Source: a virus. Taken from it: a stretch of DNA of 64,000 bases. Under the pieces are notes generated by a model. The model did no database searches, was not told the DNA's origin, and saw only the letters and a list, made by a program, of their open reading frames with translations. A program made the position numbers and the translations under genes. The stretch lies in UHGV virus genome UHGV-0171787. The stretch is one strand, 5' to 3'. Shown in pieces: positions 1 through 6,169 of this stretch (positions within the stretch are counted from its first letter, which is position 1; every line of letters begins with the position of its first letter).

Positions 1-65
1 TTTTTAAATGAGGACTCCCCCTTTTTAGGAAACGCGCGGAAGCTGCCTAGCCCCACTCGGTCAAA

Positions 66-92
66 TTGAAATTTTAAACTGTTATATATAAG
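66..92 (+). promoter_or_regulatory. Candidate sigma70-like promoter (TTGAAA, ~15-nt spacer, TATAAG)
   Basis: Hexamers read by eye at the left edge of the window upstream of the plus-strand gene block; spacer length not ideal. Confidence 0.2.
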
Positions 93-154
93 CTTGATAA
101 CTTTATTACGGGGTTGGATACTACACATGAAGTAGTTCACTACGTTCAAGTAGC

Positions 155-325
155 CTTAACGTGACATAGCCTTTATGGGAGTGCCTTAATGTGAGGTCCC
201 CTTTATGTCTTAACTTTATCAGAGGGATTTATGACTGAAGATGAATATGGTAGCTTCTCTGAAGAAGACTACGAAAATGAATACAGGTATGCTCACGGGT
301 ATTAATGTGAGGAGGCCTTTACGGG
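155..325 (+). repeat. Three copies of a ~25-bp element (TTAAYGTGA..CCTTTAYGG) at 155-179, 185-207 and 301-325
   Basis: Direct inspection: cttaacgtgacatagcctttatggg / cttaatgtgaggtcccctttatg / attaatgtgaggaggcctttacggg, in non-coding DNA upstream of the first plus-strand genes. Confidence 0.5.
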
Positions 326-384
326 TAGGTAGTCATCAGAGAAGATGATGTGCCCTTTATACTTTCTACTCAGAGGAAAATAAT

Positions 385-495
385 ATGGGATGGTTCCTGT
401 TGGGTTTAATTCTTTTTGCCACTGTTCCTATTGTTGCTGTGTTTGGTTGCATAGCCGCTGACTTATTGGGAATAAAGAAAGGAGATGAATTATGA
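385..495 (+). CDS. Small hydrophobic protein (36 aa, single TM-like segment)
   Basis: ATG with GAGGAA 8 nt upstream; translates MGWFLLGLILFATVPIVAVFGCIAADLLGIKKGDEL; stop overlaps ATG of the 492 ORF (ATGA). Below the ORF-track size cutoff. Confidence 0.35.
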   Translation: MGWFLLGLILFATVPIVAVFGCIAADLLGIKKGDEL

Positions 496-848
496 GATTG
501 GATTTAAGAGGTTGTACTAGGTCAGTTATATTGTTCAGAGGTTATGCTATCAAGATTCCTACTTTTAAATCTTGGAAGCTTTTCTTAAAAGGGATTCTTG
601 CTAACCTACAAGAGAGACATTTCTCTGAGATGAAAGACCCCAACCTTTGTCCTGTAGTCTTCTCTGATAAGTTTGGTTTCTTAGTAATAATGAAGAGGTG
701 TAAGGTGGTTAAGCACAAAGGATTGTGGATGGCAGAGCTTCACACCTTGAAAGGCTCCCTTCCTAAAGAATTTTACCTGTCAGACCTTAAGCCAGAAAAT
801 TATGGATACCTAGGCGGACGGTTGGTTAAATTAGATTATGGAGATTGA
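492..848 (+). CDS. Hypothetical protein
   Basis: ORF track, 118 aa; coupled to the upstream small ORF and overlaps the next ORF start at 845. Confidence 0.45.
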   Translation: MRLDLRGCTRSVILFRGYAIKIPTFKSWKLFLKGILANLQERHFSEMKDPNLCPVVFSDKFGFLVIMKRCKVVKHKGLWMAELHTLKGSLPKEFYLSDLKPENYGYLGGRLVKLDYGD

Positions 849-1072
849 TCATGAATTTAATACTAGACTTTTTATCAGAGGTGATTCCACGGTTCAGAAC
901 AGAGACTTGCGCCTTTGTTAAGATATCCCCTGAAGAATTAGAATGCATCGGTCGTCTGGTTGACTTGGATGACGATGAAGAATTTGATGCAACGATGGAA
1001 GTTAGTAGCCTAGGATGGTTATTCTTCCGAGCGTTCACCACTATCAAACCACACACTTATAAGGAATATTAA
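845..1072 (+). CDS. Hypothetical protein
   Basis: ORF track, 75 aa; 4-nt overlap with upstream ORF. Confidence 0.4.
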   Translation: MIMNLILDFLSEVIPRFRTETCAFVKISPEELECIGRLVDLDDDEEFDATMEVSSLGWLFFRAFTTIKPHTYKEY

Positions 1073-1075
1073 TTT

Positions 1076-1477
1076 ATGCTAGACTTAATCCACACTACTC
1101 GCCCTGATTCTAAAACTAAAACACAACCATCTACTCTGGAAGTAGTTGAATACGAATCTACTAAATATGATCACCTCCCTGACTATGCTCGTGCAATGAT
1201 TGAGATGATTGAAGAAGCTGAATATGAAATGCTCCATGATTACATTACCTCCAAAGATGAATGGCATCGTGATGTTCGCATCGAAGAAGATGGTACAGAA
1301 ACAATTACGTGGATTCACAAGAGTGAGTTAGTAGACGACGCACTGCGAGACTACGAAAAATTTTTGGTCGACGGCTCTATTCTTTTAGAGGAAGAGAAGG
1401 GTGCAGAACTTCCGTGGGAAGGCGAGACGATTGCTCTTGGTAAGATGTTTAACCTGTCCGTTGGTGATTGTAAGTAA
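1076..1477 (+). CDS. Hypothetical acidic protein
   Basis: ORF track, 133 aa; followed by terminator hairpin. Confidence 0.5.
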   Translation: MLDLIHTTRPDSKTKTQPSTLEVVEYESTKYDHLPDYARAMIEMIEEAEYEMLHDYITSKDEWHRDVRIEEDGTETITWIHKSELVDDALRDYEKFLVDGSILLEEEKGAELPWEGETIALGKMFNLSVGDCK

Positions 1478-1482
1478 TGTTT

Positions 1483-1506
1483 GCCTCCTTTGGGAGGCTT
1501 TTTGTG
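1483..1506 (+). terminator. Rho-independent terminator candidate
   Basis: gcctcc-tttg-ggaggc hairpin followed by tttttgtg. Confidence 0.5.
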
Positions 1507-1533
1507 TTGTTGATAATGTAGAAGGAGTATAAA

Positions 1534-2007
1534 ATGTTTGGAGAAAACGGAGAACTCACACCTGCACAGGTAGCTGAGATTACAGGAAGATTACCCGGAG
1601 TAACGGAAGAACTTGAAGTCCGTGGTATGAACCCAAGCAATGGGAAGTTTCAAAAGGGAAATAAATTCGGACGACCCAAAGGTAGTAGAGGTAAACTGAC
1701 ACAATTAATGTTGGACCGTGTTGCTGCAAGTCATTTGTCTCCTGATGAAGTGTTAATTCAAATTTACGAAGATCCTAATATTCCACCTGATCTTAGATTC
1801 AAGGCTGCATCAAAAGTTGCAGATCTGGTATATCCTAAGGCGGCCTCTGTTGAAGTTAAGATTGAGGAAGAGAATGTAATCAACGAAGAATCATTGAATG
1901 CACAAATCAAGGACTTCTTGACTGGAGCACTTGGTATCGATGTTATGCCTCCAGAAGAAGATAACTCTGAGGACGCTGAAAAGGGGGAGGAAGCGGACGA
2001 GAGTTAA
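1534..2007 (+). CDS. Putative small terminase subunit
   Basis: 157-aa ORF immediately upstream of the large terminase, basic N-terminal region and acidic C-terminus; assignment by position only. Confidence 0.4.
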   Translation: MFGENGELTPAQVAEITGRLPGVTEELEVRGMNPSNGKFQKGNKFGRPKGSRGKLTQLMLDRVAASHLSPDEVLIQIYEDPNIPPDLRFKAASKVADLVYPKAASVEVKIEEENVINEESLNAQIKDFLTGALGIDVMPPEEDNSEDAEKGEEADES

Positions 2008-2076
2008 GTAAAGGAAAGAAGGGGAGGTTCTTTGACGAAGGGACTTTCCCTTTTCTATTTTTAAACTGGAGGAAGT

Positions 2077-3618
2077 ATGTCATTAGATAAACAAATTTAT
2101 GAAGCTCTAACTGGTAACAACCTTAGTGTAGATGAAAAGAAAGCACTATTGAATATGTTGAAAGAGCGTGACCAATGGAGGAAGTATAATAGGATTTTGT
2201 CTTTCAAGGCGTATGACTTCCAAAAGAAATTTTATGCAGCAGGATTGAAGCATCGCTTTAGATTCTTGTGTGCAGCGAACCGTGTTGGTAAATCTTATAG
2301 TGAGGCATACGAGTTTGCTTGTCATGTCACAGGTCGCTACCCAACTTGGTGGACAGGATATAAATTTAAAAGACCTATCTTAGCATGGGCAGTTGGTATT
2401 ACAGGGGATTCCACAAGGAAAGTATTGCAAAAGGAATTGTTTGGTACACCTATCGGAAAGGATACAAATTTATTAGGGACAGGTGTCATTCCTCGTGATG
2501 CTATCGTCATTGATACGATAGAACGAGATGGTAACAAACTTCAAATCGTACAAATCAAACATCAAAATGAGAGAGGAGAGTTTGACGGTTTAAGTACATT
2601 AGAATTCCGTTCAACCCAACAGGGTGAACATACATTGATGGGTGCAACAGTTGACTACATTTGGTTAGACGAAGAAGATCCATACGAGTCTATGGCTATA
2701 TTCGCACAGTGTGTCACACGTACACTCACAACTAAAGGTCTAGTTACAATTACAGCTACACCAGAGAACGGTTTAACTGAACTGGTAGATAAATTTATGA
2801 AAGGTGAAGGAGATGAGAACACGGGTTCTCTATATTTCCAGAATGCTTCTTGGTGGGATGCTCATGCAGACCTAGGTGGACATATCACTGACCAAGATAT
2901 AAAAGATATGACTGAAGGTATTCCAGCGTGGCAATTAGAGATGCGTTCAAAAGGTATGCCATTGTTAGGAAGTGGTTTGATTTATGATGTATCGGATGAC
3001 ACAATTAAATGTGAACCATTCGAAATTCCTGATACGTGGAAACGTGTCTGTGCAATTGATATTGGTATTGATCACCCAACTGCTGCTGTTTGGACAGCTT
3101 ACGACGCAAACACGGATACTATCTATGTTTACGACTCATATAAAGAAGGTGGCTTTACTCCAGTGTATCATGCTCCAGCTATTAATGGTCGTGGTCAGTG
3201 GATTCCTGTCATCCTACCGCATGACGCGGACAATATTGAGAAAGGTAGTGGTTCATCTGTTGCTCAATTCTATAAGAATGCAGGAGTTAATGTACAGAGT
3301 GATACCTTCTACAACAAAATTGGAATGGATGGTAAAAAGAACTTCTTTGTAGAACCGGGAATCACAGATATCCGAGAAAGAATGATGAGTGGACGCTTTA
3401 AAATCTTTAACACAGCCGCTAACGCTAAGCTATTCGAAGAGAAAGCTAGATATCACCGTAAGGTTGGTAAGATTATTAAAGAACATGATGACTTAATGGA
3501 TGCAATGCGCTATTCAGCGTGCTCTGTTACACATCGTGGTCGCTCTAAGCATGATGTTAGCTACGGAAGCGCTTCTTTGTATGAGGCAAACGTAAGCAGA
3601 TGGAATCAGAGTTACTAA
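2077..3618 (+). CDS. terL: Terminase large subunit
   Basis: 513 aa; N-terminal ATPase P-loop-like LCAANRVGKSYSE and acidic nuclease-region motifs; sits upstream of portal. Confidence 0.85.
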   Translation: MSLDKQIYEALTGNNLSVDEKKALLNMLKERDQWRKYNRILSFKAYDFQKKFYAAGLKHRFRFLCAANRVGKSYSEAYEFACHVTGRYPTWWTGYKFKRPILAWAVGITGDSTRKVLQKELFGTPIGKDTNLLGTGVIPRDAIVIDTIERDGNKLQIVQIKHQNERGEFDGLSTLEFRSTQQGEHTLMGATVDYIWLDEEDPYESMAIFAQCVTRTLTTKGLVTITATPENGLTELVDKFMKGEGDENTGSLYFQNASWWDAHADLGGHITDQDIKDMTEGIPAWQLEMRSKGMPLLGSGLIYDVSDDTIKCEPFEIPDTWKRVCAIDIGIDHPTAAVWTAYDANTDTIYVYDSYKEGGFTPVYHAPAINGRGQWIPVILPHDADNIEKGSGSSVAQFYKNAGVNVQSDTFYNKIGMDGKKNFFVEPGITDIRERMMSGRFKIFNTAANAKLFEEKARYHRKVGKIIKEHDDLMDAMRYSACSVTHRGRSKHDVSYGSASLYEANVSRWNQSY

Positions 3619-3623
3619 AGTAA

Positions 3624-3655
3624 GGGGGAGGTTTATCCTCCCTTCTTTTATTTAA
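3624..3655 (+). terminator. Terminator-like hairpin between terminase and portal
   Basis: ggggagg-tttat-cctccc followed by ttcttttattt. Confidence 0.35.
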
Positions 3656-3679
3656 GCTATCAACCGAGGGAGAGAATCG

Positions 3680-5923
3680 ATGGCTAAGCAAAAATATAGT
3701 GAAGAGGTGTTGGACGAGTTACGTGTTGACCTTCAACGTCGTTTTAATTATGCTCAAGGCTACGTAGACACAGCTGTTAAGGGCTATGCTCGTGAAGCTT
3801 GGGAATATTTCTATGGTAACTTACCTGCACCAGTAACTGCTGGCAGCTCTAGTTGGGTAGATCGTACTGTTTGGGAATCTGTTAACGGTACATTGCAAGA
3901 TATTATTAACGTATTCTGTTCTGGTGACGAAGCGGTTACTTTCGTAGCTGACAACCAACAGGATTCTGATGCTGCTGATGTAGCAACTAAACTAGTTAAC
4001 CAAATTCTTCTGCGTGATAATCCGGGATATAATATTATCTCTTCTGCTGCACAAGAATGTCTGGTTACTCGTAACTCTTTTATCAAATATTATTGGGATG
4101 AGCAAACTTCTACTCAAACTGAAGAGGCTGAAGGTGTACCACCGGAAGCATTGGCTGCATATGTTCAGGGATTAGAAGCTGGTGGACTCAAGAATCTGGA
4201 AATCTTCACTGAAGAAAATGAAGATGGTACAGTAGATGTTAAAGTTACTTACGAACAAACTGTTAAACGTGTGAAAGTTGAATATGTTCCTTCAGAGCAA
4301 ATCTTTGTTGATGAACATGCTACCTCTTTTGCAGATGCACAATACTTCTGTCATCGTGTACGTCGTTCTAAAGAAGATCTGGTTGCTATGGGCTTCCCTA
4401 AAGATGAGATTGAAGCATTCAACGACTGGACAGATACGATGGATACCACTCAATCTACAGTTGCTTGGTCTCGTACTGACTGGCGTCAGGATATTGATGC
4501 TGATATTGGCACAGATACCGAAGATATTGCTTCTATGGTTTGGGTTTATGAGCACTACATTCGTACAGGTGTTCTAGATAAGAATAAAGAGTCTAAACTC
4601 TATCAGGTTATTCAAGCTGGTGAGCATATCCTTCACACTGAAGAAGTAACTCACATTCCGTTTGTAACCTTCTGCCCATATCCTATTCCGGGTTCCTTCT
4701 ATGGTCAATCGGTCTATGACATTACGAAAGATATTCAAGATTTACGTACCGCGTTAGTTCGTGGTTATATCGATAACGTCAACAATGCTAACTATGGTCG
4801 ATACAAAGCTCTTGTTGGTGCATATGATCGTCGCTCTCTGCTTGATAACCGTCCCGGTGGAGTGGTTGAAATGGAACGTCAGGACGCTATTGACCTGTTC
4901 CCATACCATAACCTACCTCAAGGTATTGATGGCCTCCTAGGTATGTCTGAGGAGCTTAAAGAGACACGTACAGGTGTAACCAAACTAGGTATGGGTATCA
5001 ACCCTGATGTGTTTAAGAATGATAACGCTTATGCAACCGTAGGCTTGATGATGAATGCTGCACAGAACCGTCTCCGTATGGTATGTCGTAACATTGCTCA
5101 CAATGGTATGGTTGAATTGATGCGTGGTATTTACAGCCTTATCAGAGAAAATGGTGAAGTTCCTATCGAGGTACAAACCCCTCGTGGTATGGTTCAGGTT
5201 AATCCGAAACAATTACCAGCTCGTCACAATCTTCAAGTTGTTGTAGCTATCTCCCCTAATGAGAAAGCAGAACGTGCACAGAAACTGATTAGCTTGAAAC
5301 AGCTGATTGCAGCAGATGCACAGTTAGCACCTCTCTTTGGTTTGGAGCAAGACCGTTACATGACTGCACAGATCTTTGAGTTGATGGGTATTAAAGATAC
5401 ACATAAATACCTTCTGCCTCTGGAACAATATCAGCCTCCAGAACCTTCTCCGATGGAAATCCTCCAGCTCGAGATGACTAAAGCACAGGTTGAGAACGTA
5501 CAGGCTTCTTCTCAGAAGATGATTGCTGATGCATTCGACCAACGTGAACGTACTACATTCGAACAGCAGAAAGCTGCGGATGAATTAAGTCTGCGTCAGG
5601 AAGAGTTGCAGTTCAAGCAAGAAAATGCAGCAGATGCAATGACTCTGGAAAACCGTAAAGAAGATAACAATGCTACTCTGGAACAAGCTAAGCACAAGTT
5701 AGCTCTTATGCAACAGCAGGTCCGTCAGTATGAATCTGTACTAAAAGAGTTGCAGATGGTTATGTCTCATCAGGTTGACCAAGAGAAGCTTAATGAACAA
5801 TCACGCATTCAAAACAAGACTTTGGAACTCCAAAAGAAAGAAGCTAATGTAACTAAGAAAGAGCAACAAACTTCTCTCAAAGATTCACGGATTCAAGGCA
5901 AACGTCTTGGAAGTAAAAAGTAA
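3680..5923 (+). CDS. Portal protein with C-terminal coiled-coil/charged tail
   Basis: 747 aa directly downstream of terL; C-terminal 200 aa Gln/Glu/Lys-rich; assignment by size and synteny. Confidence 0.7.
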   Translation: MAKQKYSEEVLDELRVDLQRRFNYAQGYVDTAVKGYAREAWEYFYGNLPAPVTAGSSSWVDRTVWESVNGTLQDIINVFCSGDEAVTFVADNQQDSDAADVATKLVNQILLRDNPGYNIISSAAQECLVTRNSFIKYYWDEQTSTQTEEAEGVPPEALAAYVQGLEAGGLKNLEIFTEENEDGTVDVKVTYEQTVKRVKVEYVPSEQIFVDEHATSFADAQYFCHRVRRSKEDLVAMGFPKDEIEAFNDWTDTMDTTQSTVAWSRTDWRQDIDADIGTDTEDIASMVWVYEHYIRTGVLDKNKESKLYQVIQAGEHILHTEEVTHIPFVTFCPYPIPGSFYGQSVYDITKDIQDLRTALVRGYIDNVNNANYGRYKALVGAYDRRSLLDNRPGGVVEMERQDAIDLFPYHNLPQGIDGLLGMSEELKETRTGVTKLGMGINPDVFKNDNAYATVGLMMNAAQNRLRMVCRNIAHNGMVELMRGIYSLIRENGEVPIEVQTPRGMVQVNPKQLPARHNLQVVVAISPNEKAERAQKLISLKQLIAADAQLAPLFGLEQDRYMTAQIFELMGIKDTHKYLLPLEQYQPPEPSPMEILQLEMTKAQVENVQASSQKMIADAFDQRERTTFEQQKAADELSLRQEELQFKQENAADAMTLENRKEDNNATLEQAKHKLALMQQQVRQYESVLKELQMVMSHQVDQEKLNEQSRIQNKTLELQKKEANVTKKEQQTSLKDSRIQGKRLGSKK

Positions 5924-5932
5924 GGACGTCGA

Positions 5933-6169
5933 ATGAACATTAGGCATCAATTCAATAAAGAGCACGCCGCCGCTTTGGCGGCTCTCAATCTTAACGGCAG
6001 TCTTGACGCAGCATTAGAGGCATTGAAAGAAAGACTCATGACCGAGATAGTTCAAACTGAACCTCATGAGAATAAGAAACGCGAAGATTGTTATCAAAAG
6101 TATAAAATGGTGGGTAGCTTAAAAGAGGTCATAAAAGCTGCTATCAATAGTGCAGGAGATGTTTCATAA
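5933..6169 (+). CDS. Hypothetical protein
   Basis: ORF track, 78 aa; stop overlaps start of next gene (TAATG). Confidence 0.45.
   Translation: MNIRHQFNKEHAAALAALNLNGSLDAALEALKERLMTEIVQTEPHENKKREDCYQKYKMVGSLKEVIKAAINSAGDVS

What the first reader, a model, noticed from the sequence alone, without database searches (positions are those of the whole stretch)
155..325. Three copies of a 25-bp bipartite element at the left edge of the structural module
cttaacgtgacatagcctttatggg (155-179), cttaatgtgaggtcccctttatg (185-207) and attaatgtgaggaggcctttacggg (301-325) share TTAAYGTGA...CCTTTAYGG with a variable 4-5 nt core. The two conserved halves are too close together for a -35/-10 pair. Candidates are a promoter array of a distinct class, binding sites for a regulator or terminase, or part of a packaging or terminal-repeat region.
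Basis: seen in the sequence. Interest (0 to 1): 0.5.

Follow-up and report, generated by a model that had tools for sequence, protein, structure and literature searches.

The report
Repeated protein-site array near phage end
The three "bipartite" elements are real. They belong to a tandem array of a short two-part DNA site that all phiEco32-like coliphages keep just inside the left genome end; it is probably a docking array for an unidentified protein, and it is not a set of promoters.

Summary
The window is a phiEco32-like Kuravirus, and base 1 lies inside the 193-bp direct terminal repeat (DTR). The three copies are exact and occur nowhere else in the window or in the whole phiEco32 genome.

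Twenty relatives show that the true unit is a 14-16-bp tandem repeat, RTGR-N5-CCTTWA-YR. Its two conserved halves are centred 10 bp apart. There are 4-8 units per phage, all on one strand, lying between the left early promoter (or gene 1) and the phi32_4 homologue. The cores stay fixed while the spacers and the DNA between units vary, and small ORFs come and go between units.

They are not phage-sigma (gp36) promoters. They lack the invariant -9A and -7A. SU10, whose sigma factor is identical, has AACGTG, AACATG and GGTATG at the same places. They are not sigma-70 promoters, show no RNA or DNA structure signal, and match no Rfam family.

The best reading is a phased array of sites for one sequence-specific DNA-binding protein. 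It would act in genome-end or packaging biology, or in control of the left early operon. The closest analogue is the T7 CCTAAAG repeat arrays next to its terminal repeats. No paper I could read describes the array. Function is inferred, not shown. Interest is moderate.

The parts
1..48 (.). Last 48 bp of the 193-bp direct terminal repeat (context)
   Evidence: Window 1 aligns to phiEco32 position 146. The DTR is annotated 1-193 in YF01 and Paul. Sequence comparison.
66..94 (+). Putative left early sigma-70 promoter (TTGAAA 66-71; extended -10 TGtTATATA 80-88) that would transcribe the array (context)
   Evidence: Read from the sequence. The same stretch is annotated as a promoter in phage 4E8 and listed as a potential sigma-70 promoter in SU10 Table S2. 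No transcription start data.
101..117 (+). Degenerate unit CTTTATTACGGGGTTGG in the window-specific segment 98-152 that replaces gene 1
   Evidence: Segment 98-152 matches none of 93 related records.
128..150 (.). Small palindromic module TGAAGTAGTTCACTACGTTCAAG
   Evidence: Folds as a weak hairpin. The same 23-mer is present in inverted orientation inside the ECBP2 array.
154..169 (+).
170..183 (+). Unit B1: CCTTTATGGGAGTG (14 nt); right half of copy 1
184..199 (+). Unit A2: CCTTAATGTGAGGTCC (16 nt); left half of copy 2
200..213 (+). Unit B2: CCTTTATGTCTTAA (14 nt); right half of copy 2
231..305 (+). 24-codon acidic mini-ORF (MTEDEYGSFSEEDYENEYRYAHGY) inserted between units; its stop TAA lies in copy 3
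   Evidence: Translation. Present or absent among relatives, with homology breaks at 231 and 293/294.
301..326 (+). Only TGA..GCCTTTACGGGT is invariant in 15 relatives
333..348 (.). Degenerate copy of the GTCATC-AAA-GATGAC palindromic module
   Evidence: Intact copies in ES17, O18-011, SGF2, Bas93, Bas89 and KBNP1711.
345..361 (+). In the 15 relatives aligned it sits just upstream of the next ORF's ribosome-binding site
   Evidence: (D6).
368..387 (+). Conserved ribosome-binding site TCAGAGGA and ATG of the next ORF (385-495, 36-aa membrane peptide)

Best explanation
The elements are units of a lineage-specific tandem array of an asymmetric two-part DNA site, RTGR-N5-CCTTWA-YR. The window has five full sites at 161-361 plus degenerate ones. 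I propose that one sequence-specific DNA-binding protein recognises each site through two successive major grooves on one face of the helix. On this view the 14/16-bp phasing loads several copies of the protein side by side, so the array works as a cis-acting docking platform at the left end of the genome.

Among possible roles I favour loading of the packaging or end-processing machinery. The candidate is the small terminase gp6, encoded 1.2 kb downstream. The analogy is with lambda cosB and the T7 short-repeat arrays. The second choice is an operator or roadblock controlling the left early operon.

Shown here:
- the repeat, its geometry and its clustering;
- its conservation against variable spacers across three genera;
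- its absence elsewhere.

Inferred, not shown:
- that a protein binds;
- which protein it is;
- which process it serves.
For: - Fixed geometry. In 86 non-redundant unit contexts from 21 phages, T and G sit at -8/-7 from CCTTWA in 77-78 cases and TGA in 56. None of 44 CCTTWA sites elsewhere in the window has TGA there. The five intervening positions carry almost no information. The centres of the halves are 10 bp apart.
- Regular 16/14/16/14 start-to-start spacing, all on one strand.
- Extreme clustering (P = 3e-11), with no other copy in 77.5 kb of phiEco32.
- Present in all 21 left ends examined, from Kuravirus, Nieuwekanaalvirus and Suseptimavirus, even though the DNA between units is mosaic.
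- Absent from the distant relatives 7-11 and GAP52, from unrelated viral contigs and from E. coli genomes.
- Links to the genome end. Sixteen of 20 relatives carry one inverted TG-N6-CCTTTA copy inside the DTR. Two units are fused to ACGGGK, a motif with 10 of its 21 + strand copies in the ~1-kb concatemer junction (P = 4e-14).
- Precedent. T7 has CCTAAAG heptamers in its terminal repeat, in a 13-bp-period array just inside it, and next to the right repeat.
- RNA and promoter readings fail.
Against: - No binding, packaging or expression data exist for this array.
- The distance from the DTR boundary to the first unit varies from 106 bp (window) to about 440 bp (O18-011). An early promoter and often a gene lie in between. 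That is unlike lambda cosB or the T7 array and argues against a cut-positioning role.
- The last unit is tied to the ribosome-binding site of the next ORF, and units overlap stop and start codons of small ORFs. This fits an expression-level or linker role equally well.
- Unit number varies from 4 to 8. LAMP lacks the CCTTTACGGGT units.
- Units and orthologues share ancestry, so the counts are not independent observations.
- Similarity between the conserved DTR segment (window 5-29) and the units is not significant (p = 0.06-0.25).
- The 14/16-bp spacing is not in helical phase.
Confidence: 0.42

Rival explanations
1. The units are intercistronic punctuation or linkers of a fast-changing early operon. 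They would be conserved stop/restart and ribosome-loading sequences on the mRNA (TAA, RTGA, a U-rich tract before the Shine-Dalgarno sequence). They would also serve as short homologies at which small ORFs are gained and lost, as described for the promoter/stem-loop linkers of T4-type phages (from memory). No dedicated DNA-binding protein is needed.
For: - Homology blocks between the window and 20 relatives break at unit edges: 97/98, 152/153, 205-207, 231, 293/294, 384-387.
- The TAA of the first unit is the stop codon of gene 1 in phiEco32 and SU10.
- The ATG of a unit starts the membrane ORF in WFI101126, SGF2 and ECBP2, and the acidic ORF in HC-25922.
- The SU10 unit CCTTTATGACTAAG looks like the head of a unit joined to the last codons of that membrane ORF.
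- The window has a chain of mini-ORFs and two ATGTGA start-stops.
- The last unit lies at a fixed distance from the TCAGAGGA ribosome-binding site.
- TTAACTTTA at 210-218 equals the T7 gene 10 translational enhancer nonamer (from memory).
Against: - Translation signals do not need TG held exactly 8 nt before CCTTWA, nor an invariant CCTT.A.
- Most units are followed by no ORF of any length.
- Spacings between units are not multiples of three, and the reading frame is not kept.
- The Shine-Dalgarno-like GAGG is not conserved in the N5 spacer.
- In LAMP and Bas93, gene 1 stops before the first unit, yet that unit is intact.
- Simple scars should drift; the cores do not.
Confidence: 0.25
2. The elements are promoters: weak or variant promoters for the phage sigma factor gp36 (-10 element AATGTG in place of AATGTA), or a further phage-specific class.
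For: - Copies 2 and 3 carry AATG, the four bases contacted by the gp36 N-terminal domain (-14A, -13A, -12T, -11G; PMC12276001).
- Copy 2 has TAG at -35 to -33, as in promoter P68.
- All copies point towards genes.
Against: - All six gp36 promoters in this window read AATGTA[T/G]A. The copies read AACGTGAC, AATGTGAG and AATGTGAG, so they miss invariant -9A and -7A, and copy 1 also misses -12T.
- None has both -37G and -34A, whose mutation abolishes transcription.
- At the same positions SU10, with a sigma factor 100% identical to gp36, has AACGTG, AACATG and GGTATG. Most relatives are similar.
- By contrast, true gp36 promoters are found at the expected places in every phage of the phiEco32 subgroup (PMC8948821).
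- The six experimentally mapped promoters do not include this region.
- The CCTTWA half would fall at the transcription start, where promoters are not usually conserved.
- No sigma-70-type hexamer pair is found.
Confidence: 0.05
3. The array is a set of iterons of a replication origin, or a cluster of site-specific nicking sites like the TACT/RTGMC nicks of phage tf, placed near the genome end.
For: - Direct repeats on one strand are typical of both.
- Units contain RTGAC, which matches the 3' half of the tf nick consensus (PMC3517423).
- The left non-coding region of the distant relative GAP52 carries three perfect DnaA boxes, so origins may lie at this end in the wider group.
Against: - No initiator gene, AT-rich unwinding region or DnaA box lies next to the array.
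- The 14/16-bp spacing is unlike iterons in helical phase.
- tf nick sites are spread along the genome rather than clustered, and need TACT, which is absent here.
- Nothing is known about nicks in phiEco32-like DNA.
Confidence: 0.06
4. The array has no present function. It would be the remnant of local duplications and ORF deletions, kept similar by recombination between phages.
For: - Unit number and order vary between phages.
- Small palindromic modules and ORFs come and go.
- The region is the most mosaic part of the left end.
Against: - The cores are held in three genera whose surrounding DNA is only 70-85% identical or not alignable. The N5 spacers have diverged freely.
- The small-genome phages LAMP and Bas93, which have lost much else, keep the array.
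Confidence: 0.1

Closest known systems
Phage T7 short-repeat arrays next to the terminal repeats (the repeats Dunn and Studier 1983 described flanking the terminal repetition; names and literature from memory, sequences checked)
   Same: - A virulent coliphage (podovirus) with short exact direct terminal repeats.
- A conserved 6-7-nt C/T/A-rich core (T7 CCTAAAG; here CCTTWAY) followed by variable bases.
- Tandem units on one strand with a 13-16-bp period, just inside the left repeat.
- The motif also occurs inside the terminal repeat.
- Function is not established in either phage, as far as I recall for T7.
   Different: - The T7 array abuts the repeat and lies upstream of the early promoters. 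This one starts 106-440 bp away, downstream of an early promoter and usually of a gene.
- T7 has the same heptamer on the right flank. Here the right flank carries a different motif, ACGGGK with 29-bp spacing.
- Here the site is two-part (RTGR + CCTTWA), and units alternate between 16 and 14 bp.
- The motifs differ; homology between the two arrays was not assessed.
Lambda cosB (three gpNu1 R sites) and pac-type small-terminase recognition arrays (from memory)
   Same: Several short repeated sites lie between the terminase cut site and the small-terminase gene, on the side of the genome that carries the packaging genes.
   Different: - Binding by the small terminase is untested here.
- The distance to the cut site is variable rather than fixed.
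- An early promoter, ORFs, a terminator and a late promoter lie between the array and the terminase genes.
- No IHF-like site was recognised.
phiEco32 gp36 middle/late promoters (tAATGTAtA; PMC8948821, PMC12276001, PMC4281155)
   Same: The left half of copies 2 and 3 (TTAATGTGA) shares TAATGT with the -10 element, in the same phage.
   Different: - Fails the invariant -9A and -7A.
- Not conserved in relatives with the same sigma factor.
- Carries a conserved second half where the transcription start would be.
- Not among the six mapped promoters.
Promoter/stem-loop linkers (PeSLs) of hyperplastic regions in T4-type phages (Arbiol et al. 2010, from memory)
   Same: Short conserved repeats bound variable small early ORFs and coincide with mosaic break points.
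   Different: The units contain neither a promoter nor a stem-loop. They also occur back to back with no ORF between them.

Membership tests
gp36 (phiEco32 sigma) promoter | -10 element tAATGTAtA with AATGTA and -7A invariant | tested here: not met
   All six promoters in the window read AATGTA[T/G]A. The copies read AACGTGAC, AATGTGAG and AATGTGAG.
gp36 (phiEco32 sigma) promoter | -35 region contacts at -37G and -34A (PMC12276001) | tested here: not met
   Copy 1 has G/C, copy 2 C/A, copy 3 A/C at -37/-34. Only 3 of the 6 genuine promoters have G/A in exact register, so this test is soft.
gp36 (phiEco32 sigma) promoter | Conserved at the same genome position in all phages of the phiEco32 subgroup (PMC8948821) | tested here: not met
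   Orthologous units read AACATG, GGTATG or AAGATG in most relatives. These include SU10, whose sigma factor is identical.
gp36 (phiEco32 sigma) promoter | Transcription start 6-8 nt downstream; transcription dependent on gp36 holoenzyme | not testable with these tools
   Needs 5' end mapping or in vitro transcription. Pavlova et al. 2012 was not available.
Sigma-70 promoter | TTGACA-like and TATAAT-like hexamers 16-18 bp apart | tested here: not met
   The scan finds no candidate within the tandem units 150-345. Its only hit in the array region starts in the last unit (TTTATA, 356-384) and runs into the ATG at 385.
T7-type short-repeat array flanking a terminal repeat | Tandem units on one strand: a conserved short core plus a variable spacer, period about 13-16 bp | tested here: met
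   16/14/16/14 spacing in 21 phages. T7 has a 13-bp period.
T7-type short-repeat array flanking a terminal repeat | Directly adjacent to the terminal repeat, upstream of the first promoters | tested here: not met
   The first unit is 106 bp (window) to about 440 bp from the DTR boundary, downstream of the putative left promoter.
T7-type short-repeat array flanking a terminal repeat | Copies of the same motif inside the terminal repeat and on the other flank | tested here: inconclusive
   One inverted TG-N6-CCTTTA copy lies in the DTR of 16 of 20 relatives, 8 nt outside this window. The right flank has ACGGGK repeats instead of CCTTWA. The DTR segment at 5-29 is not significantly similar to the units.
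Small-terminase recognition array (cosB/pac type) | Repeated sites between the cut site and the small-terminase gene | tested here: met
   DTR boundary at 48, array at 154-361, putative small-terminase gene at 1534-2007 directly upstream of the large-terminase gene.
Small-terminase recognition array (cosB/pac type) | Specific binding by the small terminase; required for packaging | not testable with these tools
   Needs EMSA, footprinting and a packaging or transduction assay. gp6 has no informative family or solved-structure match.
Small-terminase recognition array (cosB/pac type) | Fixed distance and orientation relative to the cut site | tested here: not met
   Orientation is constant but the distance varies about four-fold among relatives.
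Structured RNA / known RNA family | Stable or conserved secondary structure, or an Rfam match | tested here: not met
   No Rfam hit at or below E = 0.1 in 1-1700. RNA fold of 140-390 has z = -0.12. DNA folds of the units are not better than shuffles.
Replication-origin iterons | Direct repeats in helical phase next to an AT-rich region and an initiator gene or DnaA boxes | tested here: not met
   14/16-bp spacing. No such neighbours in 1-1500.
T4-type PeSL linkers | Early promoter plus stem-loop in each linker | tested here: not met
   No promoter pair and no stem-loop in the units. The shared trait, flanking variable ORFs, is met.

The most novel reading that the evidence does not exclude
The array is the loading site of the small terminase of a direct-terminal-repeat podovirus. 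It would work together with the inverted copy inside the DTR and the ACGGGK repeats that span the concatemer junction. The 14/16-bp phasing would reflect DNA wrapping around the small-terminase ring. That would be the first defined packaging recognition signal for the phiEco32 group, and one that lies inside an early operon rather than in non-transcribed DNA.
Probability: 0.2. Interest if true: 0.55.

Novelty: new member of a known kind. Interest (0 to 1): 0.38.

Why it matters
phiEco32 is a model for phage-encoded sigma factors, and its relatives are used in phage therapy work. The papers I could read on this group map promoters and terminal repeats but do not mention this array.

If a protein docks on it, the array gives a concrete handle on one of two open questions. 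One is how terminal-repeat podoviruses recognise concatemers for packaging, which is poorly defined outside T7 and T3. The other is how the left early operon is controlled.

It also has practical uses:
- It marks where small ORFs are gained and lost, which helps annotation. The GenBank CDS phi32_1 appears to read through the array in the wrong frame.
- It marks a region to leave untouched, or to exploit, when engineering these phages.

If it proves to be only a linker, it is an ordinary feature of a mosaic region.

Tried and rejected
- gp36 promoter: rejected on sequence and on conservation in relatives.
- Sigma-70 promoter: no hexamer pair.
- Known RNA family or structured RNA/DNA: no Rfam hit, z-scores near 0.
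- Coding repeat (CCT-TTA as Pro-Leu): spacings are not multiples of three and the frame changes between phages.
- boxA-like NusB/S10 site (TGCTCTTTA versus TGCCCTTTA): a resemblance from memory only; most units differ further; dropped.
- CsrA, Hfq, Rho rut and RNase E motifs: considered from memory. GGA is not conserved and the region is not C-rich and G-poor; dropped.
- Host transcription-factor sites (CRP, TyrR, CpxR, DnaA, IHF, matS, SlmA): no consistent match by eye. Nothing similar occurs in 5,426 E. coli genomes.
- A copy of the element in the conserved DTR segment at window 5-29: alignment not significant.
- Co-variation of ACGGGK versus ATGGGT between DTR and array: seen in Bas86, HC-25922 and ECBP2 but contradicted by 4E8. 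It is explained by two lineages, so it is not used as evidence.
- Analogous array in 7-11 and GAP52: absent; they have other repeats.
- The array in unrelated viral contigs: only single chance matches.
- Function of neighbouring proteins (Pfam, PHROGs, PDB): uninformative.
- Pavlova 2012 and Savalia 2008 could not be read.
- Literature searches for T7 packaging signals gave nothing usable.
- The prophage sRNA paper on Kuraviruses is unrelated to this region.

Full report
**What the window is**

Megablast of 1-6000 finds 100 phage records, all phiEco32-like coliphages (Kuravirus and allies), at about 97% identity. Window position 1 aligns to phiEco32 position 146. phiEco32, YF01 and Paul have 193-bp direct terminal repeats (DTRs) (PMC9965538). 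The first 48 bases of the window are therefore the end of the left DTR, and the finding lies 106 bp inside the unique sequence.

**The observation**

The three quoted strings are at the stated coordinates.
- TTAAYGTGA-N5-CCTTTAYG matches with no mismatch at 156, 186 and 302. With up to 3 mismatches only one further hit appears. The expectation is 0.57, and none of 100 shuffles reached 4.
- A six-base spacer finds nothing.
- In the complete phiEco32 genome the same three copies (414, 444, 626) are the only ones.

The repeat is real, exact and strictly local.

**What the repeat really is**

I fetched the left ends of 20 relatives from three genera. When each sequence is broken at CCTTWA, the 25-bp "bipartite element" turns out to be two neighbouring units of a tandem repeat.
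- 16-nt units such as CCTTAACGTGACATGG alternate with 14-nt units such as CCTTTATGACATGC. This gives start-to-start spacings of 16, 14, 16, 14.
- Each phage has 4-8 units, all on the + strand.
- I compiled 86 non-redundant unit contexts. CCTT.A defines the units. Beyond that, T and G occupy -8 and -7 in 77-78 of 86, R occupies -9 and -6, and S occupies -1. The spacer positions carry almost no information.
- TGA sits exactly 8 nt before the core in 56 of 86 units. It does so in none of the 44 CCTTWA sites elsewhere in the window.
- The site is therefore RTGR-N5-CCTTWA-YR, with the two halves centred 10 bp apart.

The window has five such sites (161, 175, 191, 307, 345), all within 200 bp on one strand. 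Six of the 19 CCTTWAYR copies on the + strand fall in 210 bp (P = 3e-11).

In an alignment of the orthologous copy 3 from 15 phages, only TGA..GCCTTTACGGGT, ATGA...GCCCTTTAT and the ribosome-binding site TCAGAGGA are invariant.

**Setting**

- A putative sigma-70 promoter lies at 66-94 (TTGAAA; TGtTATATA). It is conserved, is annotated in phage 4E8, and is listed as a potential promoter in SU10.
- In relatives it is followed by gene 1, a 54-aa zinc-ribbon ORF, and then by the array.
- Next come the phi32_4 and phi32_5 homologues, a terminator (window 1483-1498), and the true late promoter TAATGTAGA (1514-1522) in front of the putative small-terminase gene.
- SU10 authors class the equivalent genes as early.
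- The window has lost gene 1. Its segment 98-152 matches none of 93 related records. It is built from a degenerate unit and a small palindrome.
- Homology blocks between the window and its relatives break at 97/98, 152/153, 205-207, 231, 293/294 and 384-387, which are unit edges.
- Small ORFs (a 24-codon acidic one at 231-305, a membrane peptide in relatives) are present or absent between units.

**Are they promoters?**

The phage sigma factor gp36 recognises tAATGTAtA, with AATGTA centred at -11.5. It contacts -14A, -13A, -12T and -11G, plus -37G and -34A (PMC12276001; PMC8948821).
- The six mapped promoters are all present in the window: 1515, 9509 and 24245 on the + strand, and 40863, 37265 and 32781 on the - strand. 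All read AATGTA[T/G]A (matched to SU10 Table S2).
- The three copies read AACGTGAC, AATGTGAG and AATGTGAG, and none has both -35 contacts.
- SU10 encodes a sigma factor 100% identical to gp36. At the orthologous sites it has AACGTG, AACATG and GGTATG.
- No sigma-70 hexamer pair lies within the tandem units.

I reject the promoter reading, leaving about 5% for a weak phage-specific activity in the subset of phages that has AATG.

**RNA readings**

There is no Rfam match. The RNA fold of 140-390 is no better than shuffles (z = -0.12). DNA folds of the units are unremarkable. Spacings are not multiples of three, so the repeat is not a peptide repeat.

**Links to the genome end**

- In phiEco32, one further RTGR-N5-CCTTWA site lies inverted inside the DTR (122-138, eight bases before the window starts). 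An inverted TG-N6-CCTTTA copy is there in 16 of 20 relatives.
- A second motif, ACGGGK, has 10 of its 21 + strand copies in the ~1-kb concatemer junction (P = 4e-14). Three lie left of the right DTR at exactly 29-bp spacing. Four lie in the DTR. Two are fused to array units as CCTTTACGGGT.
- T7, checked directly, has CCTAAAG three times in its terminal repeat, about twelve times at 175-355 with a 13-bp period, and again left of the right repeat.

Against a cut-positioning role, the distance from the DTR to the array varies from 106 to about 440 bp, and a promoter lies between them. The conserved DTR segment at window 5-29 is not significantly similar to the units.

**Interpretation**

Several features together are the signature of a site read by a macromolecule of fixed shape:
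- two short conserved blocks one helical turn apart;
- free spacers and a strict single orientation;
- regular phasing;
- retention in a region that is otherwise in flux.

The most likely reader is a DNA-binding protein loaded several times side by side. I cannot say which protein. Candidates are the putative small terminase gp6, the gene 1 zinc-ribbon protein (absent from this phage), or an unknown early or middle protein. A host factor is less likely, since nothing similar exists in E. coli genomes. Family and structure searches of the neighbouring proteins were uninformative.

The main rival is that the units are punctuation and recombination linkers of a mosaic early operon.
- In its favour: their TAA and RTGA serve as stop and start codons of neighbouring ORFs, break points fall on them, and the last unit is tied to a ribosome-binding site.
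- Against it: that view does not explain the fixed TG-to-CCTTWA register or the back-to-back units with no ORF between them.

The two readings are not exclusive. A conserved protein-site array would also act as a recombination hot spot.

**Distribution and novelty**

The array is absent from the distant relatives 7-11 and GAP52, which have other repeats in a long non-coding left region. It is also absent from unrelated viral contigs. The genome papers on SU10, SU7 and YF01 and the transcription papers on 7-11 and gp79 do not mention it. The two original phiEco32 papers could not be read. I class it as a new member of a known kind: a short direct-repeat array near the terminal repeat of a podovirus. 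It is of moderate interest, and its function is open to simple experiments.

Noticed in passing
window 108-113, 295-300, 321-326; phiEco32 (L003/L004) 37, 66, 80, 93, 323, 619, 645, 77013, 77042, 77071: The motif ACGGG(G/T) is concentrated, on the + strand only, in the ~1-kb concatemer junction: 10 of 21 copies (P = 4e-14). Spacing is exactly 29 bp on the right flank and between the first two DTR copies. Suseptimavirus-type phages use ATGGGT instead. It is a second candidate end-recognition repeat.
   Followed up: partly
phiEco32 L001 122-138 (8 nt left of window position 1), minus strand: One inverted copy of the two-part site (ATGGGAATGCCTTTACC) lies inside the DTR. TG-N6-CCTTTA is conserved there in 16 of 20 relatives. 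The left early promoter is therefore bracketed by an inverted site and the direct array.
   Followed up: partly
window 44-54; L004 37355-37368: Both DTR boundaries share the same local sequence: GCT^AGCC on the left, and GCT^AGGC (phiEco32) or CCT^AGCC (window) on the right. This suggests that terminase nicks at one short sequence on both sides.
   Followed up: no
window 98-152: Gene 1, the 54-aa zinc-ribbon ORF found in all 20 relatives examined, is missing. The replacing 55 bp match none of 93 related records. They consist of a degenerate unit and a palindrome.
   Followed up: partly
window 128-150 and 333-348; ECBP2 L017, ES17 L009, SGF2 L019, O18-011 L011: Two small palindromic modules, TGAAGTAGTTCACTACGTTCAAG and GTCATC-AAA-GATGAC, are inserted at different unit positions in different phages. 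One occurs in both orientations. They behave like miniature insertions.
   Followed up: partly
window 210-218: TTAACTTTA is identical to the T7 gene 10 'epsilon' translational enhancer nonamer (from memory). It sits 4 nt before the Shine-Dalgarno sequence of the 24-codon acidic ORF (231-305).
   Followed up: no
window 175-213 and 305-310: There is a chain of minimal ORFs (ATG GGA GTG CCT TAA; ATG TCT TAA). Two ATGTGA start-stop pairs overlap the preceding TAA as TAATG.
   Followed up: no
phiEco32 L001 296-496 versus 253-417: GenBank CDS phi32_1 (296..496) is in a different frame from the conserved zinc-ribbon ORF (253..417) and reads through the repeat array. It is probably a mis-called gene.
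   Followed up: partly
GAP52 L023 462-474, 554-566, 621-633: Three copies of ACTTATCCACAGG carry the perfect DnaA box TTATCCACA. They lie in the 1.7-kb non-coding left region of this distant relative and may mark a host-DnaA-dependent origin.
   Followed up: no
window 1483-1522: An intrinsic terminator (GCCTCC-TTTG-GGAGGC plus a T run) is followed 15 nt later by the gp36 late promoter TAATGTAGA. This is the real boundary between the left early operon and the packaging/structural module.
   Followed up: yes
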